Virus record (IMG/VR): IMGVR_UViG_3300021978_000001
Span: 1 to 64,000 of that record
Direction: 5' to 3' (one strand)
Length of the DNA: 64,000 nt
DNA from: a virus
Taxonomy: Duplodnaviria > Caudoviricetes
Shown here one piece after another: positions 9,157 to 26,399 of this stretch (position 1 is its first letter; every line of letters begins with the position of its first letter). The notes under the pieces were generated by a model. That model worked only from the letters and a program-made list of their open reading frames with translations, did not search any database and was not told the DNA's origin. Position numbers and translations under genes: made by a program.

Positions 9157-11412
9157 GTGGCTGATTGGAAGACGATGGACCTGGACCTCGGTGGGGTCAA
9201 GAACGCGCTGGATACTGTTCAGGGTGTCAGTGATGCGTTGCGCGCGGTCGGACAGATCGCTGCGACCATCCTCGACCTCTTGCGCGTGTTCACGGTTCCT
9301 TCCTTGCCCAACCCCATCGCTGCGGTCGCCAACGCGCTCGTGGCACAGCTCGAAGCCTTGCTGGATAGCCTCGCGGATACGGGCGTCTTCGGGCTGTATG
9401 TGGTCCCTACCTCCCTCGATGACCTCGCAGACAGCGCGGGGGGCTTCCCTCGCTTCTCGCAAAAGGTGATCGCGTCCTTCTACGATACCGATGACATCAA
9501 CCGACCCCAGGTGGGCGCGACCGGCGTCCTCGGTGGGATCGTGATCTATGTCAACGCGCCATCGGCAGCAGGGATCATCCAACAGGCCCTCGCGCTCTAC
9601 AACCTCTTTGGTCAGCGCCCTGAGATCAACTACCCCGCGCCAATCAATGTCCGCGCCACGCCCGCCGATGATAACGGCTCCGCGACGCCTGGGTTGCTCG
9701 AAGCCTTCCTCGAAACACGCGACCCCTTGACCACGATCTTGCTCGAATGGCAAGAGCCCACCTCCACGCAGTCGTTGTTCTTCGACCTCTTCGCGCAGAA
9801 CAAGTTCTACATCGAACGCAGCCGCACCCGTGACGGTATCCTCGTCACGCAAACCACCCCGAGCGTGAACGAAGAGGATTTCCTTGCCAAGCGTAAGCGC
9901 GAGCTTGCCGAGCTTCGCGGTGAGTGCCCTGTCGAGTTTCGAGAACCCGAGCTATCTCCTCGTGGTGAGCCTCGTTATGTCTGGGAGCCTCTCGACCCTG
10001 CTAACCCGTTCCTGGAAGCCGTGGATGCAGATGAGGGAGAAGGACGAGGCATCACAGGGAACTTCCTCGCGGGGACCTACTCCACCGTGTTGCGTGATGT
10101 GGACCCCGGGCAGGACAACGGGTACTACTACCGGATCACGAGCGTCCCCGAGGATACCGTCCTCGTGCAAGAGACCGCCGAAACCACGCTCGCAGATGGC
10201 ACGGCGCAACCGATCACGATCTACACCTTGCAGCTCGACGGGCAAGAGTACACAGGGAGCAGCCCGAGCGTTCCCGTGTATGGCTTTATCCCGGACATCG
10301 ACTTTAGCTCGCCAGCGGCGTTCAACCTCCCCGATGCCTTGCTCAACGTGTACCGTGCTGCTTACCTCTTGCGCATGGACACCACCGTGTTCAACACCAG
10401 CTCGCAGCCGCGTTCGGGCTCGGGGCTTCTCTCTCCGGTCATCCCGGATGTGATTCAGGCGCTCGACGTCCCGGACATCGCGTTTGACGGTGAAGGGCAG
10501 ATCACGGACGCGTTCGAGTCCCAGAACCCCGCAGGCTTTGTGGATAGCGATGATGGAACGTTCCGTCTTTTTCAGGGGTCGTTCTTCCCGGATGAGCGCT
10601 TCCCTGACGGTCCGCCTGGGTTTGGTGCATCGCGGCGCACGGTCGAAACCCTTGGCTCGGTGACGTCTTCGGATGCGATCGAACAAGATCCTTTCGCGGG
10701 CGCCAGGGAGCTGTTTGCTGCAAAGCTCGGTCTGACCCCGAGGCAGCGGTTCCGCCTGTTCACGGATCAGGTCGCCACAGACAAGATCGAACGCATCGTC
10801 CCCTTGATGACTCGCAACGAGACCTTGTTCGAGGCGTTTCGTATCGCTTATGTCAACGCGCAAGCAGACATCGAGGCGCTCCTGACGGGCTTCACGACCG
10901 ACTTCACGGTCACCGAGGAGGTCGGGGTACGTGAAGCAGTCGCGGCGCTCCTGGTGCTCGTGGATGGCCAGATCCGTCCAGGGCTTCCACCGAATTGGCG
11001 CTCGGTTCGTCTGTTTCGTGACGTGTTGCCTGAAGTGGACCTCGTGGGCGAGCGCTTGCTCAATGTCATCTCTGCGATCAACAATGCGATTCAAGGCGTG
11101 AACACGCGCCTCGATGCGACGGTCGAGGGGTTGCAACGCAGGTTGGCCGCGCTCGATGCCGTGGTCGATGCGCTCGACGAGATCATCGCGTTCCTCGAAG
11201 CGGCAGCGACGGTATCCTTGAACGCCTCGATTCTATTTGTACCGCCTACAGTTGGAGGCGTCGCAGCGTTTGTCGATGAGTTTCAAACCGCGACCAATCC
11301 TCCCGCATCTCTCCCGACAGACTACGGCGCTGGCTTCGTGCTCGCCGCAGGAGGAGACGCAGGAGAAGCGACCGCCCTCTTTAACGCGCTACGCCTTGTC
11401 TTTGGCTTCTGA
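9157..11412 (+). CDS. putative virion structural protein
   Basis: 751-aa ORF (GTG start), helical termini and acidic beta-rich core, in the structural gene run. Confidence 0.55.
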   Translation: MADWKTMDLDLGGVKNALDTVQGVSDALRAVGQIAATILDLLRVFTVPSLPNPIAAVANALVAQLEALLDSLADTGVFGLYVVPTSLDDLADSAGGFPRFSQKVIASFYDTDDINRPQVGATGVLGGIVIYVNAPSAAGIIQQALALYNLFGQRPEINYPAPINVRATPADDNGSATPGLLEAFLETRDPLTTILLEWQEPTSTQSLFFDLFAQNKFYIERSRTRDGILVTQTTPSVNEEDFLAKRKRELAELRGECPVEFREPELSPRGEPRYVWEPLDPANPFLEAVDADEGEGRGITGNFLAGTYSTVLRDVDPGQDNGYYYRITSVPEDTVLVQETAETTLADGTAQPITIYTLQLDGQEYTGSSPSVPVYGFIPDIDFSSPAAFNLPDALLNVYRAAYLLRMDTTVFNTSSQPRSGSGLLSPVIPDVIQALDVPDIAFDGEGQITDAFESQNPAGFVDSDDGTFRLFQGSFFPDERFPDGPPGFGASRRTVETLGSVTSSDAIEQDPFAGARELFAAKLGLTPRQRFRLFTDQVATDKIERIVPLMTRNETLFEAFRIAYVNAQADIEALLTGFTTDFTVTEEVGVREAVAALLVLVDGQIRPGLPPNWRSVRLFRDVLPEVDLVGERLLNVISAINNAIQGVNTRLDATVEGLQRRLAALDAVVDALDEIIAFLEAAATVSLNASILFVPPTVGGVAAFVDEFQTATNPPASLPTDYGAGFVLAAGGDAGEATALFNALRLVFGF

Positions 11413-13002: not shown

Positions 13003-13027
13003 TACCACAAGGGTATGCCACCGTAAA
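13003..13027 (-). promoter_or_regulatory. sigma70-like early promoter TTTACG-N12-TGTGGTA
   Basis: matches a motif recurring more than 12 times upstream of genes in this window. Confidence 0.7.
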
Positions 13028-13102: not shown

Positions 13103-13616
13103 GGAACAGACCCCACAAAGGTGGGGAACATGAAGCGACTTTTGCGCCCGTCGATAGGCGCTGGGGACCATCCCCGCATGCGCGGGGAGCATGCGATCTG
13201 CTCGCGAGTATGCCCAGGATGAGCAGAACCATCCCCACAAGGGTGGGGAACATGTCGGCAGCCCGTGCGTACCAAAAAGATGGGCGGCGCCATCCCCGCA
13301 AGGGCGGGGAACACTTGGCGCCCACACAACGCCAGATGAAAGGCACGGGACCATCCCCGCATACGCGGGGAACACTTTCTTCACTCATCTCGTATCCTTT
13401 TCACAGGACCATCCCCGCACACGCGGGGAACACTGTTCTTTGTAGATGAGTTCTTGCAGTTCTTTGGGACCATCCCCGCACGCGCGGGGAACACCTCGGA
13501 GACTACAACCTGAAGATTGCGGACGTGGGACCATCCCCGCACGCGCGGGGAACACTCGCCCGGTGAGCTTTCGATATTCGACCCCTTGGGGCCATCCCCG
13601 CACGCGCGGGGAACAC
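13103..13616 (-). CRISPR. type I-E array 1 (9 repeats, 8 spacers) downstream of cas8e-cas11
   Basis: 28-bp repeat GTGTTCCCCRCNNNNGYGGGGATGGTCC at mostly 61-bp period; degenerate trailer at 13103. Confidence 0.95.
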
Positions 13617-13637
13617 TCTGAGACAACCTGTCACACC
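13617..13637 (-). promoter_or_regulatory. short leader, family A (TGTGACA-N3-TGTCTCAGA)
   Basis: same repeat-proximal sequence at 17019 and 23280, variant at 18126. Confidence 0.7.
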
Positions 13638-13650
13638 AGGGCACACCAGG

Positions 13651-15828
13651 TCAGGCGCTCTTGACGAGTCCTTCCTCTTCCTGCGTCTGCATCTTGAAGT
13701 AAGCGCGCGTCCACTCGTCCTTGGTGTCCTGATCCCAGGTCAGCAGGCTCAGGAGCAGGTCTTCACGGCTCCCGCCCGCCCCTTCGAGCATCGAGAGACA
13801 CGTCAACATCTCGCGCCACACACCCTCGGGCTTGCGGTGCGCGAGGAGCTGGTGGAAGCGGTGTTCGAGGATGCGCTTGCCCGATGCCATGCAGCGCGCG
13901 ACCTTGGCCTTGCCACGGAAGTCTTCGGGCGCAACCCTCGCCATCGCCTTGGCCATGAGCGCGATGCAGTCCGTGTCCACCTTGTCCTCACCAAAGACAG
14001 ACTCGATGATGGTCAATACCTTGATGTAGAAGGGGATGACCTTCGTGGCTTCGAGCGAGCGCGCGGCGAGCAGGGCTTGACGGTCCGCGCCACGCACATG
14101 GTGCAGCGTCATCCAGTGCTTGTAGAGCATGGGGAGGAACTCATCTTTGCGGGCGTAGATTTGGCGGTGCATGGCGTCCTTCTTGGTCTGGTACGTGATG
14201 CCCAGCTTTTGGGCGATGGTGTCGGAGAGCTTGACGCGCTCCAGGTAGGAGGAAGTCGTCCCCGAATACTGCCCCACGACGAAATCGTAGGGGTGCTTGA
14301 CGTGCGAGAGGTGTTTGTTGAACTGCATGAACACCTCATCGGCCAGGGCGCGGTTGAAGCGCGGCAAGACCTCCTCGGTGTAGGTGTCCACGTCATCGGC
14401 GCGACGCACACCCATCACCAGATTGTCAAGGTGCTTGCTCATGAGGAGATCGAGCGGCGTGAGAAGCCTGGTTTTCGTTTTCCCTGCCACCTTTTTGTAA
14501 AGCCCGAGCCTCTCCGCCGTCGCGTCGAGATACCAATCCATTTCACGGATGCTTTCGAGCGCGTGGCTCAATGCGTCTCGTACAGCGGCAGCGTTCTTCC
14601 CGAAGAGAAGAGGGATCGTGGTATCCGTGCGCCCACGAATGATGCCTTGCTTGGCGTGCAAGGCCGTGACGCGAACGCGCGGGACACCGTTGCTCCACAC
14701 ATCGTAGATGTAGTCCAGATCAGCCATGCGCGCGGCGAGGTGCCTCAGTACAGGCACGCCCGGCGTGTGTTGGTCGAGGTAGATCGCTTTCCACGCCGAT
14801 GTTCCGAGCGTGTCATCCTGGGGCGCCTGGAGGATGCGCTCGCCGTCCTGCTTGCCTTTCGAGTACGTGGGGATGGTCGCGTTTTGCGGCCTGATCCAGA
14901 GACCCTCGTACTTGATCGCGCTCCCCTTCCCGCCGTTCTCATCTCGGAGCTTTTTGTAAAGCTCGTCCTGCGCGGGGCTGATGTAGATGAAGTGAATGAG
15001 GCCGTTCTCATCGGGGTCGGGAACCATGTACTCGCGCCATGGCACCAGAATCCCGAGCAAGGGGTGATGGTCTGCGGTGTGCAGAGCCAGACTGTCCCAT
15101 TTCCCCTTCTTGGTATACAAAGCGCGGAGCTTTGGCGGCTTGATCCAGGGGAGCGTGAAGTCGAGCGTCTTCTTGTGACCCCACAACTCGTCCATCTCGC
15201 TTCGCAGCAAGAGGTTACTGGTGAGGGTCTCCCAGAGGTCACGCCCCTGGAGCGTGAAGGACACTTCCGCGTTGGTGTCGCGCGTTCCCGATCCCCTGCC
15301 ATATGCGTTGCTCCCCAGGCTCATGTGGTCGAGCGCGGTGATATGAGCGATGACGTCGGGGACTTCCAGGGACATGTGGTAGTCCACGTCATCCCCGAGG
15401 CCCCAGGGACGCTGCTTCCCTGGGTAGTCGTGACCGTACTTGTCCGCAGCGACGCACGAACCGAGCGCGTGCGGACTCAGTGCTTCCTTCCATTTCTCCT
15501 GGAGGGCATACTCACGGTTCTCGGGGACGGTCTGAAGCGCGCGTGGGCCATCACCAAAGAAGTTGAAATCCTTGATGTGGGGTGCGAGCGCTTCGGTAAG
15601 CTCCGGGCGCTCCAGGATCATATCTTCCCACTCCTCGTTGGTCTCGGGAGGAGTCAGGTATTGGAGCATGGCGATGAGGAAGTGCTCGATCCCCTGGCTC
15701 CATGCCGCGAAGTCGTAGTCGAGCTGCAAGCCCTCCTCACGGAGACCGTCGAAGCTCACGAGCTTTTTCTCCCCTTTGGCATCGCAGACGCGGATGAAGG
15801 GGTCTGTCAGTAGGTTGAGTTGCGTCAT
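13651..15828 (-). CDS. cas8e: Cas8e (Cse1/CasA) fused to C-terminal Cas11 (Cse2/CasB)
   Basis: N-terminus LNLLTDPFIRV typical of CasA; last ~170 aa (RILEHRFHQLL...DLLLSLLTWDQDTKDEWTRAYF) typical of Cse2; one 725-aa ORF. Confidence 0.8.
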   Translation of the reverse strand: MTQLNLLTDPFIRVCDAKGEKKLVSFDGLREEGLQLDYDFAAWSQGIEHFLIAMLQYLTPPETNEEWEDMILERPELTEALAPHIKDFNFFGDGPRALQTVPENREYALQEKWKEALSPHALGSCVAADKYGHDYPGKQRPWGLGDDVDYHMSLEVPDVIAHITALDHMSLGSNAYGRGSGTRDTNAEVSFTLQGRDLWETLTSNLLLRSEMDELWGHKKTLDFTLPWIKPPKLRALYTKKGKWDSLALHTADHHPLLGILVPWREYMVPDPDENGLIHFIYISPAQDELYKKLRDENGGKGSAIKYEGLWIRPQNATIPTYSKGKQDGERILQAPQDDTLGTSAWKAIYLDQHTPGVPVLRHLAARMADLDYIYDVWSNGVPRVRVTALHAKQGIIRGRTDTTIPLLFGKNAAAVRDALSHALESIREMDWYLDATAERLGLYKKVAGKTKTRLLTPLDLLMSKHLDNLVMGVRRADDVDTYTEEVLPRFNRALADEVFMQFNKHLSHVKHPYDFVVGQYSGTTSSYLERVKLSDTIAQKLGITYQTKKDAMHRQIYARKDEFLPMLYKHWMTLHHVRGADRQALLAARSLEATKVIPFYIKVLTIIESVFGEDKVDTDCIALMAKAMARVAPEDFRGKAKVARCMASGKRILEHRFHQLLAHRKPEGVWREMLTCLSMLEGAGGSREDLLLSLLTWDQDTKDEWTRAYFKMQTQEEEGLVKSA

Positions 15829-15831
15829 CGG

Positions 15832-16575
15832 TCAAGCTCCTTGCGTGAGGGTCTGGTAGGTGCCCTGGTGCTCGACGCGCTCGCGTTGCGAACCCGTCTT
15901 GGTCAGGTCATTGGGGACGTCGCGGCGGTAGTGCTCCTGCTCGACCTCACCGAGCGCGAGCGACTTGTCCCAACGCACCTCGCCGGGGTAGCAAGCGACG
16001 CCTTGCTCTGCCAACAGCGGGAAGCTCGAAAGGTGCGCCTCCCTGAGCGCGCTCAGAGCGTCCGTAGCCTCCAGGATGCGTGGGTTGAGGGGTGAGCTAG
16101 GGGTACAGCTCTTGCGTCCAATGTAGACCGGCCAGTGCGGTTTACGCAGCGCTTGGCAGAGGTCTTCGATGTGCAGCGCTTCTCCCACCTCCAAAATGAC
16201 CGTGAACGCATGGTCGATGAGGTAGTCCCGCTCGGTGAGCATGGTCTTGACGTGGGGGTGATGGACCGCGCCCTTGCGCGTGGTCGGCATCGGCGCGCTC
16301 TTGTTCGGGCCTTCAACCCACTTCACCGTGTGGAAGTCTCGCTGGTAGGAGGGCGTCGTTTGCCCCACGCGATAGGCGAGCGTGACCATCTTCGTGTTGT
16401 TTGCGAGCGCGTGGTGCATTGCTCGCTGGTGACGGGGGATACCGAGCGCGCAGGCAAGAAGCCCGAGCACCGCGCTCTTGGTTGGGGCACTCTCCGTGGT
16501 GCGCATGTTCGCCGTGGCGACGCCCCCAAAGGACATCATCGGGGCGCGGAGATCGAAAGCAAGGTATTGTTTCAT
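15832..16575 (-). CDS. cas5: Cas5e (CasD)
   Basis: LAFDLRAPMMSFG...PTKSAVLGLLACALGI, RDYLID and YIGRKSC motifs; start MKQY after AGAGG. Confidence 0.95.
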   Translation of the reverse strand: MKQYLAFDLRAPMMSFGGVATANMRTTESAPTKSAVLGLLACALGIPRHQRAMHHALANNTKMVTLAYRVGQTTPSYQRDFHTVKWVEGPNKSAPMPTTRKGAVHHPHVKTMLTERDYLIDHAFTVILEVGEALHIEDLCQALRKPHWPVYIGRKSCTPSSPLNPRILEATDALSALREAHLSSFPLLAEQGVACYPGEVRWDKSLALGEVEQEHYRRDVPNDLTKTGSQRERVEHQGTYQTLTQGA

Positions 16576-16611
16576 AACTTCCTCTTGTTGGTTTAGGACA
16601 CACACCTTTCA

Positions 16612-16636
16612 TACCACAGATGATACGAGGTGTAAA
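16612..16636 (-). promoter_or_regulatory. promoter for cas5-cas8e/11 (TTTACA-N12-TGTGGTA)
   Basis: recurring motif, directly after the array 2 trailer. Confidence 0.65.
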
Positions 16637-16637
16637 A

Positions 16638-17018
16638 GGAACACTCCCACAATGGTGGGAAAAAGACTCTCATCGCATCGGACCAGAACCATCCCCACAG
16701 AGGTGGGGAACACTAGTCTCGCGTTTCTTCGACGCCAAGTGTGAACGGACCATCTCCGCACATGCGGAGAACACTTTATGCATGCATTGCCAATCTTCAA
16801 TCCGAAGGGACCATCCCCGCGTGCGCGGGGAATACGCAATCGTGACATGGTGCGCTTATAATGCCGTGGGACCATCCCCGCAAAGGCGGGGAACACGCAC
16901 CCGTGACGCTCGTGATTTCGGTCGCCCCGGGACCATCCCCACACGCGTGGGGAACACTGAAGGCGCCCTCATCGGCACACAAGATCATGGGGACCATCCC
17001 CACACGCGTGGGGAACAC
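16638..17018 (-). CRISPR. type I-E array 2 (7 repeats, 6 spacers) between cas6 and cas5
   Basis: repeats at 16638, 16686, 16747, 16808, 16869, 16930, 16991; leader A at 17019. Confidence 0.93.
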
Positions 17019-17050
17019 TCTGAGACATCTTGTCACAGTTACAAGCACAG

Positions 17051-17776
17051 TCACAGAAGCTCGATCTGCGGCGCGGGCTTCACGAGCATCATCCCGGCAC
17101 CGAACGCCTTGCCGCGTCCCAACCCCTCGCGCCACACGGTCATGAAGGCGTCCACGTCCGTCACGCGCACGCGCATCTCGACCTGCACCATGTCCACCAC
17201 GATCTTGCGTCCGCGCTTGCGACCCTCGGAGCGCTGCATGTCGGTCAAACACTCCAGGCGCTCGATGGTGAAGCCGCACTTGTCCGCGCGGGCTTCCATC
17301 CACTCGACCATGAGATCGTGGAGAGGGCGCGCCTCGCGGTCCTCGATGGCGGCGAAGATGCGCTCGTAGGTATCCACGGCGAGGCGCTTGGGCTGGCCAT
17401 CCTCGATCAAGCGCTTGTCTCGTGTCTGGATCGTCGGGTTCACCCAGACGCGGACGTGCAAGGGTTGACCTTCGGTGAGCTGTGGCGTCATCTCTCGCGT
17501 CTGCACCTGGAAGTAGGGCGTCTCGCGGGGAGGCTCTTGAGAGATCATGTAGAAGATCCCACCCGTGGGAGGCGTACACAGGTAAGGGCGCTCACCCCCA
17601 GCCTCGACCTCGAAGAGTTCATAGAGGAGCTGGTGCAAGGCGTAACAGCCCTCGCCGCTCATTTGCATGAGCTTCTTGACACCCTGTTTCGTGTAGCGGC
17701 ACTGCGAGAGGTAGATGGGAGCCTCCTCGGATGCGGGTTTTGGTGGATTGAAGAGTTCTTGTTGTTGTGCAGTCAT
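17051..17776 (-). CDS. cas6: Cas6e (CasE) crRNA endonuclease
   Basis: HQLLYELF, VRVWVNPT and C-terminal G-loop GLGRGKAFGAGMMLV. Confidence 0.95.
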   Translation of the reverse strand: MTAQQQELFNPPKPASEEAPIYLSQCRYTKQGVKKLMQMSGEGCYALHQLLYELFEVEAGGERPYLCTPPTGGIFYMISQEPPRETPYFQVQTREMTPQLTEGQPLHVRVWVNPTIQTRDKRLIEDGQPKRLAVDTYERIFAAIEDREARPLHDLMVEWMEARADKCGFTIERLECLTDMQRSEGRKRGRKIVVDMVQVEMRVRVTDVDAFMTVWREGLGRGKAFGAGMMLVKPAPQIELL

Positions 17777-17788
17777 TGTTCTTCCTTT

Positions 17789-18125
17789 GAATTATCCCCA
17801 CTCATGTGGGGAACGTTTTAAAGAGCCTATCACTCAGCGTCAGGCTGGAATCGAACCATCCCCACAAGGGTGGGGAACACCGATTCGCGCGCCCTTATGT
17901 CCTAGTCCAAGACGGGACCACCCCCGCGTGTGCGGGGAACACTCTTCGGGGAGTGCTTCGAGGTCGCTTGCCGCAGGACCATCCCCGCATGCGCGGGGAA
18001 CACGTAATCCTGACCCAGACGATTCAGTTTGGTCACGGACCATCCCCGCACATGCGGGGAACACGCGACCCTCACCCGAAGCCTTGGAAGGTCGTAAGGA
18101 CCATCCCCGCGTATGCGGGGAACAC
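17789..18125 (-). CRISPR. type I-E array 3 (6 repeats, 5 spacers) between cas7 and cas6
   Basis: repeats at 17789, 17853, 17915, 17976, 18037, 18098. Confidence 0.93.
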
Positions 18126-18180
18126 CCTGTGCCACTTTGTCACGGTTGATGACAGGAGTGACACAGGGGAACGAAGGTCA

Positions 18181-19578
18181 TCACTCGGCAGCAGCCACTT
18201 CCTGCTCGATCTTGCCGAAGATCGACGTCAAGGTCTTCTCCACGAGGGCGTTCAGGTCAGGCGCGACCTCACCACCGGACGCCAGGGGCTCCAGGTCGTG
18301 CGTCTTTGCCCAGGTCGTGACCGCGCGGTGCTCCAGGTTCATGCGCGTGACCACGAGGTCATGGTGACGCTCCAGGCGCTCGATCGCTTCCTCGACGACG
18401 TTGCTCGACTCGACAGGCTGCATGAACGCGTCGGTGTACTGCGTCGGCTGTTCATCGGTCACGGTCGCCAGGACGTAGGAGGCGGGGATGAGGGATGCCA
18501 TCGTGGTCTGCTGACCGCCCGCCTGATACTTGACCATCGACTGCAAGACCGCCGCGACCGCCTCACGCGTCAAGTCCACGACATCACCCGTATCGGTGGT
18601 GCCTTCGACGTACAGCGTGCGCATGAGCTGGTGGAGGTCGATCGCCACGAAGTCGTAGAAGACCGTCGAGGTCATCGTCTTGAAGCCGTTGTGCGCCGAT
18701 CCGGTGTTGGGATCGAACGCATCCGTCGCGGTGAAGAAATCCGAGTCACCCACATACTCGGTCACGCCGATGCTGTGCGCGAAGCGGATGGCGCCATCCG
18801 CAGCAGGCATGTTCGTGTCCGAGGCGATCATGCGCCCGAAGAGCCCGATGTCCACGTTGGGAGAGGCTTGCGCCGTGGCGAAGTCCTTCTGGATCTGTGC
18901 GAAGGTTTCCGCGACCTTCTCATTGTAGACGGTCTCCAGGAGGCTCTTGTACGCCTCTTCCTTGTCCTCGGTCTCTTCGGTCTCGGTCTCCTCGGTGTCA
19001 CTCGTCAGCGCGGTGATGGCGGGCTTGAGGTCTGCCATGCCGTCCACGAGCTTGTCGAGCGCGTCCACCAAGCAGGCTTCCTCACTCTGCTTGACCTTGA
19101 TCGAAGCCGAGAGCGTGCGCCCGTCCTTCTTGACGTCTCCCTTGTCGCTGTGTGCGAAAGCCTCGATGCCTCCCTGGCTGTAGGTGATGCCGTCCTTGAT
19201 GGCAGCCTCGAAGGCGGACTTGCTACACGTCTTCTTCTTGCCAAAGAGCGGCGCGAGCAAGAGCGCTGCGGCGTAGGCGAACACGGGGTCTGCGCCGTCC
19301 TCGATCGCATCCTCGGAGATCTTGTTGAGGATCGTGCGCGTGTTGGTGCTCATGGACTGCTTCTCACGCAAGCCGTCGAAGAACGGACCGTTGCGCATGA
19401 TGCTTTTCCGGCACTGCGAGGATTCGCGAGCACGCAGGACACCTGCAAAGTCAGAGACCTTGGGTTGCCCCTGCTTGTCGCGGTTGCGGTTGCCTGGTGC
19501 GCTCGGGAGCAGCACATGCAAAGCGATCAGCTTTGGCGTGATTGCCAGAAGGGTGTTGAGTGCGTTTTTCTTTGCCAT
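18181..19578 (-). CDS. cas7: Cas7e (CasC) backbone subunit
   Basis: NRNRDKQGQPK...RARESSQCRK, VDIGLFGRMIA, DFFTATD...GSAH motifs; start MAKK chosen from RBS spacing. Confidence 0.93.
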   Translation of the reverse strand: MAKKNALNTLLAITPKLIALHVLLPSAPGNRNRDKQGQPKVSDFAGVLRARESSQCRKSIMRNGPFFDGLREKQSMSTNTRTILNKISEDAIEDGADPVFAYAAALLLAPLFGKKKTCSKSAFEAAIKDGITYSQGGIEAFAHSDKGDVKKDGRTLSASIKVKQSEEACLVDALDKLVDGMADLKPAITALTSDTEETETEETEDKEEAYKSLLETVYNEKVAETFAQIQKDFATAQASPNVDIGLFGRMIASDTNMPAADGAIRFAHSIGVTEYVGDSDFFTATDAFDPNTGSAHNGFKTMTSTVFYDFVAIDLHQLMRTLYVEGTTDTGDVVDLTREAVAAVLQSMVKYQAGGQQTTMASLIPASYVLATVTDEQPTQYTDAFMQPVESSNVVEEAIERLERHHDLVVTRMNLEHRAVTTWAKTHDLEPLASGGEVAPDLNALVEKTLTSIFGKIEQEVAAAE

Positions 19579-19642
19579 TTTCATCTTCCTGTACTCGTAG
19601 TCGTGTGGAGCGGCACACCCCCATGGCGCGCCCTTCTCCGGG

Positions 19643-19671
19643 GGATCATTCCCACATGAGGTGGGAAGCAT
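19643..19671 (-). repeat. orphan degenerate CRISPR repeat upstream of cas7
   Basis: GGATCATTCCCACATGAGGTGGGAAGCAT (+): repeat-like with intact TCCCAC/GTGGGA stem. Confidence 0.7.
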
Positions 19672-19678
19672 GTTTTGG

Positions 19679-19708
19679 ACTATACGGTCCTATGCGATGC
19701 GTTGTCAA
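19679..19708 (-). promoter_or_regulatory. sigma70 promoter for cas7 (TTGACA-N18-TATAGT)
   Basis: near-consensus -35/-10 read on the minus strand between cas3 and the orphan repeat. Confidence 0.7.
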
Positions 19709-19717
19709 CACCTTTTT

Positions 19718-22339
19718 TTACGGTTTCTGTAAACCGAGGTATGCATCATACGAAAGCATGATAGCGCCGCCCTGTTCATCGACCATCGGGAGATCCCATC
19801 CATAGGAAGTCTTCGTGGCGATGACGACCTCGCGCGTTTGCTTGAAGGGGAAGCTATCCAGGATCGCCTCGGGAATCTCGGGGCGGTCGTATGCCCAGTA
19901 GATGGGGATGGTGATGCGTGAGCCAGAGCGTGTACCTGCGACCGGGACGAGGACGCCGTTCTCTTCATACCAGACCTCCCAACGCCTCGACGGGATGATG
20001 TCTCGGGTCTGGATGGGCTTCTCGCTCCCCCACAAGGCTGCGGACTTCGCGTAAGTCTTGCTAAAATCCAGCGTCCCACGTCTCGCCGTGTTGCCTGTAT
20101 CCTCATCGCGCAAGAGGACGCGCTCGTGTACATGCGCGAGCGACTTGGGGATCTCATCCTTGGCGCGGCGTAACAGCTCGCGTGTATCGCAAGGAAGCTG
20201 CCAGGGGTCTTTGCACAAGGAAGCGGAGGTGTAGAGCGTTGCGATGTCCGGGTAGATGTAGCGCGTGTCTTGCAGGCTCGGGCTGTGCTCGACCCACCGT
20301 GCGTCTGGTGTTCCGATCAGAGGAGGCGTGAAAAGCCCCATGCACACGTTGATACGTTCGCCGTCTTCGTGACGCAGGACACGTCCAGCGCGCTGGATAA
20401 GCAGGTCCACGTCACACACGTCGCTGATTCCCCAGTCAAAGCTCACGTCGAGGGATTCCTGCAAGACCTGGGTGCAGACCACGATCTTACCGCGCCGTGC
20501 ATCCTTCGGGGCGCCACGGCCAAAGGAGGTAACGAGAATCTCATCGCGCTTTTGACGGTCTGCGAGCGTATACCTCGAATGGGTCAAGATCACATCATCG
20601 TACCTGGCCTTGATCGCTTCATACGCACGACAGGCGGAGTTGACCGTGTTGCGGAACCAAACCACCGCCTCCCCATCATACGCGCGTTGCACGAGTTCAT
20701 TGACCACGGCATCGAGTGACCCCTGATCCTCGAAGATCTCCCAGTGAAGCTCGCGCTTCTGGTGTGGGTTGACCGACTGCACCTGGCGTATCGCGTCCCC
20801 CTGGACATACGTCATCGCGGGCAAGGTGGGTGGTGTGTCTGCTTTCGCGCGCCCGCTCGTGTATGCGTCAATAAGCATGGAGCGCGCTTCGGCGTCGCAT
20901 GTCGCTGACATCGCGATGACAGGTTGGCCCGCGCGTCCGCACCACTGGAGCAAGGCACACAGCAAGGGCATCATGTGTGCATCCATCGTGTGGACCTCAT
21001 CCAACACGAGCACCGAGCGGGAGAGCGCGGCGAGACGCATGGGCGCGAAGTACCTCGGAATCACCGCCAGCAAGAGCTGGTCGATGGTGCAGACATTGAC
21101 CTGGGAGAAGAGCGCTTGACGTGAGGACGAGTTGAGCCACTCCGACGCGGTGAGGGTTCCCCCCTGGGAATCCTTCAAGATGCGCCACGTTCTGTTCTCC
21201 TGGCGCGAGGAGTGAATCAGGGAGAGGGTGGGAGGCTCGGTGAACGAAACCTCTGCGTATTCCATGACCCGAGGGAAGATCCCGTTGGCCGTGGCGCGTG
21301 TCGGGAGCGCGAAGGTGATGCCCTTGCATCCGCTCTTGTGCATCATCTCCCTGGCGAGCGCGAGCCCTGCTTCTGTCTTACCCGCGCCTGTGGCGTCCTC
21401 GATCAAGATGAAGCCTTCCCCCTCGATCTGCCTCGCCATGCCCTGTGCGGCGCGCTGGAGAGGTCTGGGGCTATGTTCTGGTGCGAGGAGTCCTTCCCAA
21501 AACTCGGTCTCGCGTACCGGCACATGCGCGAACTGCACATCCTCATACGCGCGCGTCGCGCCCGAGAGCGCGTAGCAATGCCAGTACGTCCTCGGGTCCA
21601 TCCAATCGCCGTGGAGCGTGAAGTAATCCTGGGTCGAACCGAGCCAATCACTGATCTGGCCAATCCCGGCGAGCAACCAGGACGCACGTTCCATGTCGGG
21701 CGCCTTGGTGTAATCGCCTTGCAAGCCCCCCATCGCGAGCTTGATCGCCTCACAATGCGCCTCGAAGCGCTCCTGCGTATTGCGAACCTTGACGCCGTTC
21801 TCGACATCCGCCCACTGCTCGCTGGCCTTGGGTCGGTTGTTCGGGTCGATCCCGGTTTTCTTTTGGAAGGGGAGCGCGTAGCCATGGTGCGAGAAGCTCG
21901 CGTGCAAGAGCGCGTTGATCTCTCGCTTCCCCACGCCAAGGAAGCCCTGGACCTTGCGTAGCATGGTGTATCCCACGAGATCATGGCGCATCTCCGCGCC
22001 GGGGATCTCCAGGATAGGCTTTGGCTCGAAGGGTTCGAGCGAGTTCAGGTACGCGACCGCCTGCGCGCTCTTTGCCTGAAAGTTGTCGGTGAGCTTCCCG
22101 AGGTCATGGAACATGTACAGGAGAGCCATGTCATGCATGAGGACATGCCTTGAGACCCCGAGAGCTTCACAAAGTTGGCGGCCCCATTCATCCTCGCGCT
22201 GGAGCATGACATAGACACAGCCCGCGACATCCATATTGTGGTACAACACGAGGTGGATGCCCTGGACGGGCGCCTCGCTGCCGGGCGACTGGTCGGTCTT
22301 TGCCCAGCAGCGGTTGTAGGGTAGGAAGTGGGTGGACAT
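19718..22339 (-). CDS. cas3: Cas3 HD nuclease-SF2 helicase
   Basis: HNMDVA, FHDLGK, SHHG, SDWLGS (HD); DATGAGKTE, DEVH, MSAT, LIQRAGRVLRH (helicase). Confidence 0.96.
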   Translation of the reverse strand: MSTHFLPYNRCWAKTDQSPGSEAPVQGIHLVLYHNMDVAGCVYVMLQREDEWGRQLCEALGVSRHVLMHDMALLYMFHDLGKLTDNFQAKSAQAVAYLNSLEPFEPKPILEIPGAEMRHDLVGYTMLRKVQGFLGVGKREINALLHASFSHHGYALPFQKKTGIDPNNRPKASEQWADVENGVKVRNTQERFEAHCEAIKLAMGGLQGDYTKAPDMERASWLLAGIGQISDWLGSTQDYFTLHGDWMDPRTYWHCYALSGATRAYEDVQFAHVPVRETEFWEGLLAPEHSPRPLQRAAQGMARQIEGEGFILIEDATGAGKTEAGLALAREMMHKSGCKGITFALPTRATANGIFPRVMEYAEVSFTEPPTLSLIHSSRQENRTWRILKDSQGGTLTASEWLNSSSRQALFSQVNVCTIDQLLLAVIPRYFAPMRLAALSRSVLVLDEVHTMDAHMMPLLCALLQWCGRAGQPVIAMSATCDAEARSMLIDAYTSGRAKADTPPTLPAMTYVQGDAIRQVQSVNPHQKRELHWEIFEDQGSLDAVVNELVQRAYDGEAVVWFRNTVNSACRAYEAIKARYDDVILTHSRYTLADRQKRDEILVTSFGRGAPKDARRGKIVVCTQVLQESLDVSFDWGISDVCDVDLLIQRAGRVLRHEDGERINVCMGLFTPPLIGTPDARWVEHSPSLQDTRYIYPDIATLYTSASLCKDPWQLPCDTRELLRRAKDEIPKSLAHVHERVLLRDEDTGNTARRGTLDFSKTYAKSAALWGSEKPIQTRDIIPSRRWEVWYEENGVLVPVAGTRSGSRITIPIYWAYDRPEIPEAILDSFPFKQTREVVIATKTSYGWDLPMVDEQGGAIMLSYDAYLGLQKP

Positions 22340-22385
22340 GGGAAACCTCTCTGTCCTTTTGGGAGAATGAGTATCAGATTCCTGA

Positions 22386-22410
22386 TACCATAAACGAGAG
22401 GTTGTGTAAA
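22386..22410 (-). promoter_or_regulatory. promoter for cas3 (TTTACA-N12-TATGGTA)
   Basis: recurring motif about 45 nt upstream of the cas3 start. Confidence 0.65.
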
Positions 22411-22432: not shown

Positions 22433-22714
22433 TTAGTAATCACCCATGATGTAGTGGTCGAAGGAAGCGTAGTAAACACACTGGAAACCGCACTCGCACA
22501 CGAAACCCTGACGGGGATAGCACTGCCGGATTTCCGCAGGAGACATCAATTCGGCGGAAGGCCGATGAAAATTGATCGTGCCTACCGTCTTCCCGCACTT
22601 CTGGCACGTCATCTCGTGCAGCTCTTCCTGGGGTGTGAAGTCGTCTGGTCGAGGGGGAGGTTCGGTAGGCCCCATGATAAAGGCCATCGCGGCTTTCATT
22701 TCATCGTCTGTCAT
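22433..22714 (-). CDS. small Zn-binding protein
   Basis: CQKC and CECGFQC motifs, 93 aa. Confidence 0.6.
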   Translation of the reverse strand: MTDDEMKAAMAFIMGPTEPPPRPDDFTPQEELHEMTCQKCGKTVGTINFHRPSAELMSPAEIRQCYPRQGFVCECGFQCVYYASFDHYIMGDY

Positions 22715-23004
22715 TAGCTTCTCTCGACGTAAAGGGCATTCATGCGCTGTAGATGGTCTTCACGCTCGAATTGTTCTTTGAGCTTTTTCGCTTCATCACG
22801 GCGATCACGCTGCGTCTCCTGGTAGCGGATCACGAGAAGATTCATCACCCTTCGGTGATAGACCTCGGTAAGCTCGCAAGGTTCTGTCTCTGCGCGCAAG
22901 ACATCCGCAGGCTCTACCTGCAAGGCTTCGGCCAGTTGGTAAATGTCGAAACCGAGCGCGTCTCGAAGGGTCTGGAGTTCGAGGGTTTTGGAGAAAGTAG
23001 CCAT
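22714..23004 (-). CDS. XRE-like helix-turn-helix protein
   Basis: LQTLRDALGFDIYQLAEALQVEPADVLRAE resembles an XRE HTH; AAAGGA RBS right after the array 4 trailer. Confidence 0.6.
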   Translation of the reverse strand: MATFSKTLELQTLRDALGFDIYQLAEALQVEPADVLRAETEPCELTEVYHRRVMNLLVIRYQETQRDRRDEAKKLKEQFEREDHLQRMNALYVERS

Positions 23005-23017
23005 GATCAATCCTTTG

Positions 23018-23279
23018 GTGGTGTCCCCACAAAGGTGGGGAATATGTTGGGAGCGAACTGTGCGCCGGACCATCCCCACAAAGGTGGGGAACACGTGTCA
23101 TCAGGACACACGCCTTGGAGAGTTGTAGGACCATCCCCGCGCATGCGCGGGGAACACAGGATGTCCCCGATCTCGGGCAGTATCCATTCGGGACCATCCC
23201 CGCATACGCGGGGAACACCCGAGATCATAGCTGATGCCCGTCTCGGTTGTGGGACCATCCCCGCATACGCGGGGAACAC
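23018..23279 (-). CRISPR. type I-E array 4 (5 repeats, 4 spacers)
   Basis: repeats at 23018, 23067, 23128 (30 bp), 23191, 23252. Confidence 0.92.
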
Positions 23280-23374: not shown

Positions 23375-23401
23375 GTGAAAGACCACATCAAGTGCCAAAT
23401 C

Positions 23402-23525
23402 GAGCCATCCCTGCACATGCAGGGAACAGTGAGCAGACATGCCATGTCGTTTCAGTAACTTGCGGACCATCCCCACATGTATGGGGAATACGAATCAAAA
23501 GTTACGCTTCAGAACCATCCCCCGC
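23402..23525 (-). CRISPR. degenerate array remnant (2 repeats plus a half repeat)
   Basis: repeats at 23402 and 23464; GAACCATCCCCCGC half repeat at 23512 ending at a gene stop. Confidence 0.7.
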
Positions 23526-25453: not shown

Positions 25454-25472
25454 GTGTGTTTCCTTTTGATAG

Positions 25473-25628
25473 AGGTTAGCCCCGCATGTGCGGGGAACGC
25501 ACTGGCGGTGTACGAGTTCGTGCAGCGGTTCGGGCCAGGACCATCCCCACATACATGGGGAAATACTTTTGGGATCTTGTCCTGCGGTTCCTGTTCGAGC
25601 GGACCATCCCCGCAGAGGCGGGGAACTA
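25473..25628 (-). CRISPR. type I-E array 5 (3 repeats, 2 spacers), no leader seen
   Basis: repeats at 25473, 25538, 25601; last repeat abuts the stop codon of the embedded ORF. Confidence 0.85.
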
Positions 25629-25859: not shown

Positions 25860-25888
25860 TCTCGTTGTTGGTGCCCCTTGGGGCGGTT

Positions 25889-26282
25889 GGACCATCCCCG
25901 CACACGCGGGGAACATCGGACAGGGAACTTAGGCGCGCGATGGCGTCCCGGGCCATCCCCGCATACGCGGGGAACATCCACTCAGGGGATCGATGTACGC
26001 AAAACGTATCGGACCATCCCCGCACACGCGGGGAACACACCACGGCCACAGTACAAGCCGGGATCACCGCCGGACCATCCCCGCATGTGCGGGGAACACG
26101 CACTTGACGAGCGCTGTCTTGCAGAGTGATGGGAACCATCCCCGCATGCGCGAGGAATACGGTGCGGGTGTCTGGAGGTGTCCCTTGATGTCCGAACCAT
26201 CCCCGCACGTGCGGGGAACACGATGCCATCCGCACCAACGGCCCTCGCAATCTCGAACCATCCCCGCACGTGCGGGGAACAC
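25889..26282 (-). CRISPR. type I-E array 6 (7 repeats, 6 spacers)
   Basis: repeats at 25889, 25950, 26011, 26072, 26133, 26194, 26255 at 61-bp period. Confidence 0.95.
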
Positions 26283-26399
26283 TCTTCAAATGTTCAGTCC
26301 TCTAAGCCCTCGGATTCCTTACAGAATCCTCAGACCCCCTCGAACCCGTTTCCCTGTACCGAGTCAAAAGGTACCGCAACATCCCAAACCCTGTCAAGC
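26283..26399 (-). promoter_or_regulatory. leader family B with promoter (TTGACA-N13-TGCGGTA)
   Basis: about 117-bp sequence conserved at 29057 and 31212. Confidence 0.8.

What the first reader, a model, noticed from the sequence alone, without database searches (positions are those of the whole stretch)
13103..22410. Phage type I-E effector locus with cas genes separated by CRISPR arrays
The transcription order is cas3, orphan repeat, cas7, array 3, cas6, array 2, cas5, cas8e-cas11, array 1. Canonical I-E is one contiguous operon, cas3-cas8e-cas11-cas7-cas5-cas6-cas1-cas2, with the array outside (established). Here the order is scrambled, all junctions but cas5/cas8e contain repeats, cas3, cas7 and cas5 each have their own promoter motif, and no cas1/cas2 is seen. 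The interference module appears intact (HD and helicase motifs, Cas6 G-loop). Inference: a phage weapon against competing elements whose arrays are co-transcribed with the cas mRNAs, so Cas6 would cut up its own operon transcript.
Basis: partly seen in the sequence, partly recalled or inferred. Interest (0 to 1): 0.92.

Follow-up and report, generated by a model that had tools for sequence, protein, structure and literature searches.

The report
Huge-phage CRISPR with arrays inside operons
A complete 437-kb phage carries its own CRISPR weapon (type I-E, without the genes that add new memories). Its guide-RNA arrays sit between the cas genes, in front of other phage genes and among its tRNA genes, so the same RNA-cutting enzyme that makes the guides probably also cuts the phage's own transcripts.

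Summary
On the minus strand lie cas3, an orphan repeat, cas7, array, cas6, array, cas5, a fused cas8e-cas11 and an array, all scored as type I-E. The layout is not an assembly artefact: an independent assembly of a 94%-identical relative has it too. That relative shares the leaders and terminal units, but every leader-proximal spacer differs. The window is the start of a complete 437-kb phage genome with no cas1 or cas2 anywhere.

I count about 18 repeat loci (about 75 repeats, 68 distinct sequences), all on one strand. Six have a dedicated promoter and leader. Seven end 2-18 nt before the ribosome-binding site and ATG of the next gene. Five solo repeats lie inside the phage's tRNA cluster. 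The unit that ends array 2 has a 19-nt spacer matching the core of the cas7 promoter at every base-pairing position of 1-14. This looks like CreR-type autorepression.

Best reading: an adaptation-less, self-regulating phage I-E interference system whose arrays are co-transcribed with genes and processed by Cas6e. New spacers probably come in trans. Spacer targets are unknown except one relative's spacer that points to a related phage. I rate it a new variant of a known kind.

The parts
13103..13616 (-). Array 1: 9 repeats, 8 spacers. The first repeat starts 34 nt after the cas8e-cas11 stop. The leader junction is class A (TGTGACAGGTTGTCTCAGA directly before the repeat).
13651..15828 (-). Fused cas8e-cas11 gene (725 aa). 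An in-frame internal ATG at codon 553, preceded by AAGGA, lies at the start of the Cas11 part.
   Evidence: Pfam Cse1 57.9 bits and Cse2 27.3 bits, both above cut-off. PADLOC Cas8e plus Cas11e. Model pLDDT 73 matches E. coli and T. thermophilus Cse1 (target TM 0.70-0.75) and Cse2 (about 0.7). Internal start.
15832..16575 (-). cas5e (247 aa from ATG 16575, with ribosome-binding site AGAGGAAG). It ends 3 nt before cas8e-cas11.
16612..16636 (-). cas5 promoter: the phage promoter motif TTTACA-N14-TGGTA.
   Evidence: 60 copies in the genome against 0-1 in shuffles
16638..16713 (-). CreR-like unit at the end of array 2: full repeat 16713-16685, 19-nt spacer 16684-16666, degenerate repeat hairpin 16665-16638 followed by a T-run (terminator-like).
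16685..17018 (-). Array 2: 6 repeats. The first repeat starts 32 nt after the cas6 stop. Class A junction.
17051..17776 (-). cas6e (241 aa), with the catalytic His and G-rich loop conserved.
17788..18125 (-). Array 3: 6 repeats. The first repeat starts 55 nt after the cas7 stop. The terminal repeat ends 11 nt before the cas6 ATG, with the ribosome-binding site in between.
18181..19584 (-). cas7e (about 465 aa, long, with an acidic insertion).
19642..19671 (-). Orphan degenerate repeat at the start of the cas7 5' UTR. It is identical in the relative L001.
19679..19708 (-). cas7 promoter, TTGACA-18-TATAGT. The plus-strand stretch 19686-19699 inside it is the predicted CreR target.
19718..22339 (-). 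cas3 (873 aa), with HD nuclease and SF2 helicase motifs intact.
22386..22410 (-). cas3 promoter: TTTACA-N14-TGGTA motif.
22433..23004 (-). Two small genes between array 4 and cas3. One is 96 aa and looks like a helix-turn-helix protein by eye (no family hit). The other is 93 aa with CxxC...CxC (Zn-ribbon-like). The second is the gene matched by a spacer of relative L001.
23017..23279 (-). Array 4: 5 repeats, class A junction, own promoter-like site upstream. The terminal unit has a 20-nt spacer. The terminal repeat ends 12 nt before the ATG of the 96-aa gene.
23401..23491 (-). Mini-array: 2 repeats and one 33-nt spacer.
25472..25628 (-). Array of 3 diverged repeats. The last repeat ends 18 nt before the ATG of a 140-aa repeat protein (phrog_3163).
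25888..26397 (-). Class B unit: dedicated promoter (TTGACA-N17-GGTACC, at 26397), about 85-nt leader with palindrome GGATTC-N6-GAATCC, and an array of 7 repeats (25888-26282).
28720..29171 (-). Class B unit: promoter at 29171, leader, and an array of 6 repeats (28720-29056).
30919..31326 (-). Class B unit: promoter at 31326, leader, and an array of 5 repeats (30919-31211). The terminal repeat ends 13 nt before the ATG of a 94-aa gene (30621-30905). Its homologue overlaps the cas3 start in relative L122.

Best explanation
This is a phage-borne, adaptation-less type I-E interference system. It belongs to a small clade of huge phages and is built into the phage's own transcription units.

Shown by the sequence:
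- A complete effector set is present: Cas3, Cas7e, Cas6e, Cas5e and a fused Cas8e-Cas11.
- About 18 co-oriented repeat loci exist in the genome.
- Repeat hairpins are kept by compensatory change while loops vary freely.
- Arrays abut the stop codon of the gene before them and the ribosome-binding site of the gene after them.
- Six loci share a dedicated promoter and leader.
- Spacers have turned over at the leader end relative to a 94%-identical relative.

Inferred mechanism:
1. Three units cover the cas region: (array 4, two small genes, cas3), (cas7 promoter, orphan repeat, cas7, array 3, cas6, array 2, CreR-like unit) and (cas5 promoter, cas5, cas8e-cas11, array 1).
2. Cas6e cuts at the 3' base of every repeat hairpin. 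This releases crRNAs and, at the same time, separates the flanking mRNAs. Each mRNA then starts with an 8-nt handle remnant and may end in a Cas6e-bound hairpin.
3. Cascade loaded with normal 32-nt guides recruits Cas3 to destroy matching DNA. The most likely targets are related or competing phages and other mobile elements in the same host.
4. The 19-nt guide at the end of array 2 directs Cascade to the -35/-10 spacer of the cas7 promoter. With only 14 nt of pairing, Cascade would bind but Cas3 would not cut. This gives CreR-type negative feedback that senses how much crRNA competes for Cascade.
5. New spacers enter at the leader-repeat junction through the Cas1-Cas2 of a host type I-E system with the same repeat family, or by recombination between arrays.
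For: Gene identity. Fold of the fusion. Active-site motifs.

No cas1 or cas2 in a complete genome.

Geometry. Gaps from stop codon to first repeat are 34, 32 and 55 nt. Gaps from last repeat to the next ATG, with a ribosome-binding site in between, are 11, 12, 18, 13, 7, 2 and 14 nt at seven arrays. No promoter motif lies in front of arrays 1-3. Repeat hairpins carry no T-run except at unit ends.

Independent assembly L001 has the same layout. Its leaders and all three terminal units are conserved, yet 0 of 12 versus 8 leader-proximal spacers are shared.

Repeats 1 and 2 are identical in 5 of 11 arrays, against 1 of 48 later neighbouring pairs, as expected if the first repeat is duplicated at each acquisition. 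Repeat position 29 varies with each spacer (G35, C26, T12, A4). In E. coli I-E this base comes from the PAM (my knowledge of the E. coli system).

Stem pair 10-17 is G-C in 59 repeats and A-T in 16; 0 of 2000 shuffles reach the observed pairing.

The dedicated promoter TTGACA-N15-19-GGTACC occurs 7 times, all on the minus strand, and 6 of the 7 sit in front of repeats.

CreR-like unit. The pattern GGTCC.ATGCG.TG occurs only twice in 437 kb: the spacer itself and the cas7 promoter. About 0.05 chance sites are expected. In this phage the only mismatch within positions 1-14 is position 6. In L001 the mismatches are positions 6 and 12. Both are the flipped-out, non-pairing positions of I-E guides.

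One L001 spacer matches a gene of this phage lineage with 3-5 mismatches, so it was taken from a third relative.

The exact repeat sequence occurs in type I-E arrays of many actinomycetes.

Precedents: huge phages with adaptation-less CRISPR and compact arrays (PMC7162821); CreR in I-E (10.1101/2023.03.10.532045); in-trans use of host I-E adaptation by plasmid type IV-A (PMC11656645).
Against: There are no expression data, so co-transcription and Cas6e cutting of mRNAs are inferred from spacing alone.

None of the roughly 55 spacers of this phage found a protospacer in its own genome, INPHARED, PLSDB, IMG/VR (five exact or seed patterns), one metagenome scan or a 125-kb relative.

The host is unknown. 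The phage's 58% GC does not fit Streptomyces, which gave most of the repeat matches.

The 5' flank of the CreR target is TAC, not the AAG/ATG PAM of E. coli I-E. The PAM of this system is unknown.

Seed matches at 12 positions occur by chance for about 5% of spacers, so the CreR call rests on where the match lies and on the L001 substitution pattern.

Repeats within arrays are unusually heterogeneous (68 distinct among 77). This fits old, drifting arrays or unit exchange as well as active acquisition.

The fusion gives one Cas11 per Cas8e, whereas E. coli Cascade has two Cas11. Whether a free Cas11 is made from the internal ATG is unknown.
Confidence: 0.62

Rival explanations
1. RNA punctuation comes first. 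The repeats are mainly Cas6e-dependent processing and stability signals for phage transcripts (mRNAs and the tRNA precursor). Guide-directed interference is secondary or vestigial.
For: The terminal repeat lies 2-18 nt before the next ATG at seven loci. Solo repeats sit in the cas7 5' UTR and 33-40 nt from four tRNA genes, with a fifth solo repeat 103 nt from another, inside a co-oriented tRNA cluster. A distant relative keeps only one or two hairpins between cas7 and cas6. Hairpins are conserved while loops vary freely. No spacer target was found.
Against: Spacers are a regular 32 nt and have turned over at the leader end. Cas3 and all Cascade subunits are intact. A dedicated array promoter and leader exists. 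Predicted accessibility of the ribosome-binding site does not change on cleavage. This reading also does not exclude interference; both may hold.
Confidence: 0.15
2. The weapon is aimed at the host rather than at competing elements. Spacers would direct Cas3 to the host chromosome, or to host defence islands or satellites, as in Vibrio phage ICP1.
For: This is known for phage ICP1 and proposed for some huge phages (PMC7162821; PMC11656645). The lack of hits in viral collections is compatible with non-viral targets.
Against: No match was found in the candidate host loci or in five whole genomes carrying the same repeat. The only spacer with a traceable origin points to a related phage. The host is unidentified, so the test is weak.
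Confidence: 0.12
3. Decoy or anti-CRISPR. The many host-like repeats soak up host Cas6e or Cascade, or hijack host cas regulation, as RNA anti-CRISPRs and viral crlRNAs do. This would protect the phage from a host type I-E system.
For: The repeat is identical to I-E repeats of many bacteria. Solitary repeat units and short-spacer units are present. Precedent: 10.1101/2024.10.29.618823 and PMC11656645.
Against: The phage encodes its own complete, intact effector set and Cas3. Arrays carry full-length, turning-over spacers. The one short-spacer unit with a target hits the phage's own cas7 promoter, not a host promoter.
Confidence: 0.06
4. Artefact or relic: a chimeric assembly of bacterial CRISPR DNA into a phage bin, or a decaying locus with no function.
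For: The sequence is metagenome-derived. Repeats are heterogeneous.
Against: The same layout appears in an independent Logan assembly with different spacers. The same gene order and flanking phage genes appear in three further assemblies of a distant relative. All ORFs are intact with catalytic motifs. Repeat stems show compensatory change. Repeat loci are spread over a 437-kb genome with terminal repeats.
Confidence: 0.02

Closest known systems
Canonical type I-E CRISPR-Cas (E. coli K-12, Thermus thermophilus HB8)
   Same: Cas3 with HD nuclease and helicase, Cas8e, Cas11, Cas7e, Cas5e and Cas6e families. The repeat is 29 nt with a 6-7-bp GC stem and an 8-nt handle, and spacers are 32 nt. The repeat is nearly that of T. 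thermophilus I-E. The last repeat base is variable, as for a PAM-derived base.
   Different: The gene order is cas3-cas7-cas6-cas5-cas8e/11, not cas3-cas8e-cas11-cas7-cas5-cas6-cas1-cas2. cas8e and cas11 are fused. There is no cas1 or cas2. Arrays lie between cas genes and at about 15 further sites. The proteins are very diverged: the fusion has only 15 detectable relatives among 1.84 billion representative proteins.
Adaptation-less CRISPR-Cas of huge phages (Al-Shayeb et al. 2020, PMC7162821)
   Same: A phage genome over 200 kb, effector genes without Cas1/2/4, compact arrays (median 6 repeats there; 3-9 here), and proposed use against competing phages or host genes.
   Different: That paper, as far as I read it, describes a type I-C variant and class 2 systems. 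It does not describe a type I-E with arrays interleaved between cas genes, a genome-wide set of promoter-led arrays, or a CreR-like feedback.
CreR / crRNA-like regulatory mini-arrays (10.1101/2023.03.10.532045; 10.1101/2023.03.03.530964)
   Same: A degenerate repeat pair flanks a spacer with partial, seed-end complementarity to the promoter of the effector cas genes. This is reported for I-E (Salmonella: 15 nt; here 14 nt). Standalone repeats next to cas3 are reported in 25-29% of I-E loci.
   Different: Here the unit is the last unit of a full array inside the operon it would repress. The spacer is only 19 nt. The flank is TAC, not AAG. It is phage-encoded. Function is untested.
Virus-borne mini-arrays and solitary repeat units (PMC6858448; PMC11656645)
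   Same: Short arrays and single repeats in a virus genome with host-type repeats. Where known, spacers are aimed at related viruses.
   Different: Those viruses rely on the host's Cas proteins. This phage brings its own Cascade and Cas3.
Plasmid type IV-A3 acquiring spacers through host I-E Cas1-Cas2 (10.1101/2023.06.23.546257; PMC11656645)
   Same: A mobile element without an adaptation module whose arrays still gain spacers. A compatible host I-E repeat and leader is the proposed route.
   Different: Shown experimentally for the plasmids and only inferred here from polarised spacer turnover. The effector type differs.

Membership tests
Type I-E CRISPR-Cas | Cas8e (Cse1) large subunit | tested here: met
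   Pfam CRISPR_Cse1 57.9 bits against a cut-off of 24.7. Four PADLOC Cas8e models. The model matches E. coli, T. thermophilus and T. fusca Cse1 with target TM 0.60-0.75.
Type I-E CRISPR-Cas | Cas11 (Cse2) small subunit encoded as a separate gene | tested here: not met
   The Cse2 domain is present (Pfam 27.3 against 24.6; PADLOC Cas11e 1e-10; fold match to Cse2, target TM about 0.7). It is fused in frame to Cas8e. A separate product from internal ATG 553 is possible but untested.
Type I-E CRISPR-Cas | Cas7e, Cas5e and Cas6e of the I-E families | tested here: met
   PADLOC Cas7e 2e-50, Cas5e 3e-44, Cas6e 1e-27. NCBIfam casD and casE are above cut-off; casC is below its cut-off (142.8 against 178).
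Type I-E CRISPR-Cas | Cas3 with fused HD nuclease and SF2 helicase | tested here: met
   PADLOC Cas3e 3e-154. HD motifs, GAGKT, DEVH, SAT and QRAGRVLR are present.
Type I-E CRISPR-Cas | 29-nt repeat with stem-loop and 8-nt 5' handle; about 32-nt spacers | tested here: met
   No Rfam CRISPR-DR family reached its threshold.
Type I-E CRISPR-Cas | Canonical operon order with cas1-cas2 and an external array | tested here: not met
   Order is cas3-cas7-cas6-cas5-cas8e/11. There is no Cas1 or Cas2 in the genome. Arrays lie between genes.
CreR-type cas autoregulatory mini-CRISPR | Degenerate repeat pair flanking a spacer-like sequence | tested here: met
   Full repeat 16713-16685, 19-nt spacer, degenerate hairpin 16665-16638.
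CreR-type cas autoregulatory mini-CRISPR | Seed-end partial complementarity to the promoter of effector cas genes | tested here: met
   13 of 14 positions match from position 1, with the mismatch at position 6. The target lies between the -35 and -10 of the cas7 promoter and is unique in the genome. L001 differs only at positions 6 and 12.
CreR-type cas autoregulatory mini-CRISPR | Functional PAM next to the target | tested here: inconclusive
   The flank is TAC. The PAM of this system is unknown. C is the second commonest last repeat base.
CreR-type cas autoregulatory mini-CRISPR | Cascade-dependent repression of the promoter | not testable with these tools
   Needs a reporter assay.
Huge-phage adaptation-less CRISPR-Cas | Encoded on a phage genome over 200 kb, no Cas1/2/4, compact arrays | tested here: met
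   437,490 bp with terminal repeats and a baseplate protein. No Cas1 or Cas2. Cas4 was not searched. Arrays have 2-9 repeats.
RNA anti-CRISPR / solitary repeat units | Host-type repeat in a virus that lacks the cognate cas genes | tested here: not met
   Cognate cas genes are present and intact in the phage.

The most novel reading that the evidence does not exclude
In this phage clade the CRISPR repeat has become a general RNA punctuation mark. Cas6e would define the ends of at least ten phage transcripts: the cas mRNAs, small early-type genes behind promoter-led arrays, and parts of the tRNA precursor. Guide production, cas dosage (through the CreR-like loop) and phage gene expression would then form one coupled circuit. 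The arrays would be refilled in trans by the host's own I-E adaptation enzymes.
Probability: 0.3. Interest if true: 0.88.

Novelty: new variant of a known kind. Interest (0 to 1): 0.76.

Why it matters
Phage-borne CRISPR without adaptation genes is known. How such systems are expressed, regulated and refilled is not. This locus offers sequence-level handles on all three questions.
- Arrays sit inside operons, so one can test whether Cas6e processing shapes mRNA fate. Synthetic biology exploits this principle; I found no natural example in the papers I searched.
- A predicted self-repressing guide can be tested with a simple reporter.
- Leader-polarised spacer turnover in a genome with no cas1/cas2 argues for in-trans adaptation into a phage.

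The Cas8e-Cas11 fusion and the scrambled gene order also extend the known range of type I-E architecture. They give a compact five-gene Cascade-Cas3 set that might be useful as a tool.

Tried and rejected
Spacer targets. All of the following gave no credible protospacer.
- Own genome.
- INPHARED phages by megablast.
- PLSDB plasmids: only repeat hits.
- IMG/VR exact or every-sixth-position-free patterns for five spacers.
- One metagenome scan with the shared 21-nt core of a duplicated spacer: three chance matches that stop after 21-23 nt.
- The 125-kb IMG/VR relative.
- 120 bacterial loci and five whole genomes carrying the repeat.

Host. No spacer links were found in either direction. Relatives cannot be drawn for a virus record. 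The ENA and JGI metagenome loci are not held as records. Sample accessions are not mentioned in the paper library.

Relatives. The search for related loci with the fusion protein found nothing in IMG/VR. The fusion alignment was too diverged to search with. The Cas3 alignment found one IMG/VR record, the same contig as L123.

Other checks that gave nothing.
- Ribosome-binding-site unmasking by Cas6e cleavage: the predicted unpaired probability is about the same before and after, so I dropped this idea.
- Other short terminal spacers (20, 21 and 23 nt) and the sequence after the orphan repeat: no convincing seed target.
- A CreR-like unit in the distant relative L122: not found. Its cas7 promoter carries a protein-type palindrome instead.
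- Small genes behind the arrays: no Pfam or PHROG family except phrog_3163, they are not paralogues of each other, and the Atlas gave only weak leads.
- Rfam: no family at gathering score.
- Terminase_6N was not detected. The phage call rests on the IMG/VR record, the terminal repeats and the baseplate protein.

Full report
**What is there**

The window is the first 64 kb of a 437,490-bp IMG/VR virus record with direct terminal repeats, rated complete by CheckV. Other genes in the window fit a large tailed phage: a baseplate J/wedge protein, family-A DNA polymerase, an intein-containing DnaB-like helicase and an SNF2 helicase.

On the minus strand, between 13.1 and 22.4 kb, five ORFs are scored as type I-E Cas proteins by three HMM libraries.
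- Cas3: 19718-22339.
- Cas7e: 18181-19584.
- Cas6e: 17051-17776.
- Cas5e: 15832-16575.
- A single 725-aa protein (13651-15828) with a Cse1 domain followed by a Cse2 domain.

An AlphaFold model of that protein (pLDDT 73, pTM 0.67) matches solved Cse1 chains of E. coli, T. thermophilus and T. fusca (E down to 1.6e-14). Separately, it matches Cse2 chains. It is therefore a true Cas8e-Cas11 fusion.

Cas3 has all its nuclease and helicase motifs. Cas6e keeps the catalytic histidine that aligns with E. coli CasE H20, and the glycine-rich loop.

Cas1 and both Cas2 families are absent from the entire genome. The control genomes gave hits for Cas1 and for each Cas2 family.

**The repeats**

A 29-nt repeat reads on the minus strand as GTGTTCCCCGCGCGTGCGGGGATGGTCC plus one variable base, with a 61-nt period. 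This is a classical I-E repeat, nearly that of T. thermophilus. Every copy is on the same strand as the cas genes.

The system is much larger, though.
- The window holds further arrays at 23017-23279, 23401-23491, 25472-25628, 25888-26282, 28720-29056 and 30919-31211.
- The rest of the genome holds arrays at 110.4, 405.6 and 408.2 kb.
- Solo repeats lie at 120.2, 123.5, 127.1 (two), 127.7, 148.9 and 405.0 kb.

Of 77 repeats, 68 are distinct. The four loop positions vary almost freely, mostly by transitions. Stem pair 10-17 switches between G-C (59 repeats) and A-T (16), and none of 2000 shuffles reaches the observed pairing. The hairpin is under selection; the loop is not.

**Not an artefact, and conserved in a small clade**

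Among 1.84 billion representative proteins, the fusion has only 15 detectable relatives. Only three of them are fused and full-length.

The 94%-identical one lies on an independent Logan assembly (L001). Its layout is array, two small genes, cas3, orphan repeat, cas7, array, cas6, array, cas5, cas8e-cas11.

The 30%-identical one lies on contigs of 373 kb and 125 kb and a third short one (L122-L124, L129). These have the same cas order and the same flanking giant genes. They carry only one or two hairpins between cas7 and cas6, and a promoter without a repeat between cas6 and cas5. They have many arrays elsewhere, one of them on the other strand but again co-oriented with the gene behind it.

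So the scrambled order and the fusion are ancestral to the clade. Full arrays between the cas genes are a feature of the G000/L001 lineage.

**Evidence that arrays are part of transcription units**

Arrays 1, 2 and 3 begin 34, 32 and 55 nt after the stop codons of cas8e-cas11, cas6 and cas7. Neither the sigma-70 scan nor the two phage promoter motifs has a site in front of them.

At seven arrays the last repeat keeps its hairpin but has lost the consensus handle. It ends 2-18 nt before the ATG of the next minus-strand gene, with a ribosome-binding site in between. For cas6 the gap is 11 nt.

Other arrays end with a degenerate hairpin, a T-run and then a copy of TTTACA-N14-TGGTA. That motif occurs 60 times in the genome against 0-1 in shuffles, and it precedes cas5 and cas3. 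cas7 has the best sigma-70-like promoter in the region, with the orphan repeat at the start of its 5' UTR. Both are identical in L001.

A second motif, TTGACA-N15-19-GGTACC, occurs only seven times, all on the minus strand. Six of the seven copies head a conserved leader of about 85 nt that runs straight into a repeat. This is an array-dedicated promoter and leader.

Together these features make Cas6e cleavage of gene-bearing transcripts the simplest expectation. No RNA data exist to confirm it.

**Spacer dynamics**

G000 and L001 share, at each of the three comparable arrays, the leader, the terminal repeats and the terminal spacer. The terminal spacers differ by 0-2 transitions. None of the 12 (G000) and 8 (L001) leader-proximal spacers is shared.

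The first two repeats are identical in 5 of 11 arrays, against 1 of 48 later adjacent pairs. The last repeat base changes with each spacer. From my knowledge of E. coli I-E, these are the marks of Cas1-Cas2 integration at the leader-repeat junction. This phage has neither enzyme.

The exact repeat occurs in I-E arrays of many actinomycetes and a few other bacteria. All 18 PLSDB hits are Streptomyces plasmids. A host I-E adaptation module acting in trans is therefore plausible, as shown for plasmid type IV-A3. Recombination between arrays is the alternative. One spacer-repeat unit is present twice (28.9 and 25.9 kb) and differs only by transitions.

**A self-targeting regulatory guide**

Array 2 ends with a full repeat, a 19-nt spacer and a degenerate repeat (16713-16638). 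The first 14 nt of that spacer match the plus strand at 19686-19699, which lies between the -35 and -10 hexamers of the cas7 promoter. The match holds at every position except position 6.

The 12-position pattern occurs nowhere else in 437 kb, and about 0.05 chance sites are expected. In L001 the promoter is identical and the spacer differs additionally at position 12 only. From my knowledge of Cascade structures, positions 6 and 12 are the bases flipped out of the guide-target duplex in I-E Cascade.

Across all spacers, such seed hits arise by chance for about 5% of queries. The chance of one landing in a cas promoter is of the order of 0.002 by my estimate.

This matches the CreR mechanism shown for I-B, I-E and V-A systems, in which partial pairing lets the effector repress its own promoter and sense competing crRNAs. 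Here the regulator is the last product of the operon it would repress.

**What the spacers are for**

No spacer matches the phage itself. One L001 spacer matches the Zn-ribbon gene just upstream of cas3, with 3 mismatches to L001 and 5 to G000. It must have been taken from a third member of this phage lineage. That fits inter-phage competition, the role proposed for huge-phage CRISPR and shown for viral mini-arrays.

Every other search for protospacers failed (see Tried and rejected). The target range, and the choice between competitor and host targets, stays open.

**Comparison and verdict**

The system works like type I-E and its parts belong to the I-E families. It fails three architectural features of the canonical subtype: a separate cas11, the gene order, and the adaptation module with an external array.

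It belongs to the known class of adaptation-less CRISPR-Cas systems of huge phages. Standalone repeats near cas3 and CreR-type units are known in bacteria.

I did not find the following combination described in the papers searched:
- full, turning-over arrays between cas genes;
- about 18 co-oriented repeat loci, including promoter-led arrays that serve as 5' leaders of non-cas genes;
- solo repeats in a tRNA cluster;
- a Cas8e-Cas11 fusion;
- an in-operon CreR-like loop on a phage.

I rate it a new variant of a known kind, with high interest. The mechanism is inferred from sequence geometry and comparative evidence only.

Noticed in passing
G000 99.8-174.4 kb (outside the window): tRNAs at 120038-128086; repeats at 120214-120241, 123515-123542, 127052-127079, 127168-127195, 127667-127694: The phage encodes 33 tRNAs, all on the minus strand. 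Five solo CRISPR repeats lie inside the cluster in the same orientation. Four of them are 33-40 nt from a tRNA end (before tRNA-Val and tRNA-Met, after tRNA-Ile and tRNA-Ala); the fifth is 103 nt before tRNA(cta). The spacer-length gaps suggest either guides whose 3' end is made by RNase P, or repeats used as general RNA processing marks.
   Followed up: partly
window 16666-16684, 23046-23065; G000 110437-110457, 408237-408259: Four arrays end with a short terminal spacer of 19-23 nt, about 12 nt less than normal (two Cas7 steps), followed by a degenerate repeat. Only the 19-nt one has a recognisable target, the cas7 promoter.
   Followed up: partly
window 26283-26397, 29057-29171, 31212-31326; G000 405032-405119, 405818-405932, 408653-408767: The array-dedicated promoter and leader contains a conserved palindrome, GGATTC-N4-6-GAATCC, about 40 nt before the first repeat. 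The arms are kept across copies while the centre varies. It could be a protein operator or an RNA hairpin.
   Followed up: no
whole genome; in the window at 13027, 16636, 22410, 23996, 28652, 31654, 39807, 41149, 45490, 46579 (minus) and 36859, 49416 (plus): The motif TTTAC[AG]-N13-15-TGGTA occurs 60 times against 0-1 in shuffles. It is probably the main phage promoter class (a -35 element plus an extended -10).
   Followed up: partly
window 28873-28933 and 25917-25977: One repeat-spacer unit is duplicated in two arrays. The copies differ by 4 of 32 spacer bases and 4 of 29 repeat bases, all transitions. Loop variation across all repeats is also mostly transitions (an RYRY pattern). This hints at a transition-biased mutation process at exposed hairpin loops, or at selection against recombination between arrays.
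   Followed up: partly
window 30621-30905 and L122 3989-4255; window 25031-25453 and L122 1866-2240: Two small-protein families stay linked to the CRISPR region in both phage lineages. One is a 94-aa protein (33% identity, E 4e-16) that in L122 overlaps the cas3 start. The other is a repeat protein (phrog_3163). Both are candidate accessory genes with no known family.
   Followed up: partly
window 58514-61510 and 62484-63947: The DnaB-like helicase carries an intein with a LAGLIDADG domain. The SNF2-type helicase next to it also has an intein-splicing fragment.
   Followed up: no
window 1736-8614 and 9157-11412: A 2292-aa and a 751-aa ORF next to the cas locus have no Pfam or PHROG match. They are conserved in the same position in the distant relative (2277 aa and 743 aa in L122).
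   Followed up: no
window 19607-19641: After the orphan repeat, the cas7 5' UTR has an 8-bp hairpin. It differs between G000 and L001 at four positions, so that two G-U pairs in G000 correspond to A-U pairs in L001.
   Followed up: no
G000 120038-120110: ARAGORN calls a tRNA with anticodon CTA (reads UAG). It is preceded by its own promoter-like site and a solo repeat. This could be a suppressor tRNA. The genetic code of the phage was not examined beyond the fact that table 11 gives intact cas ORFs.
   Followed up: no
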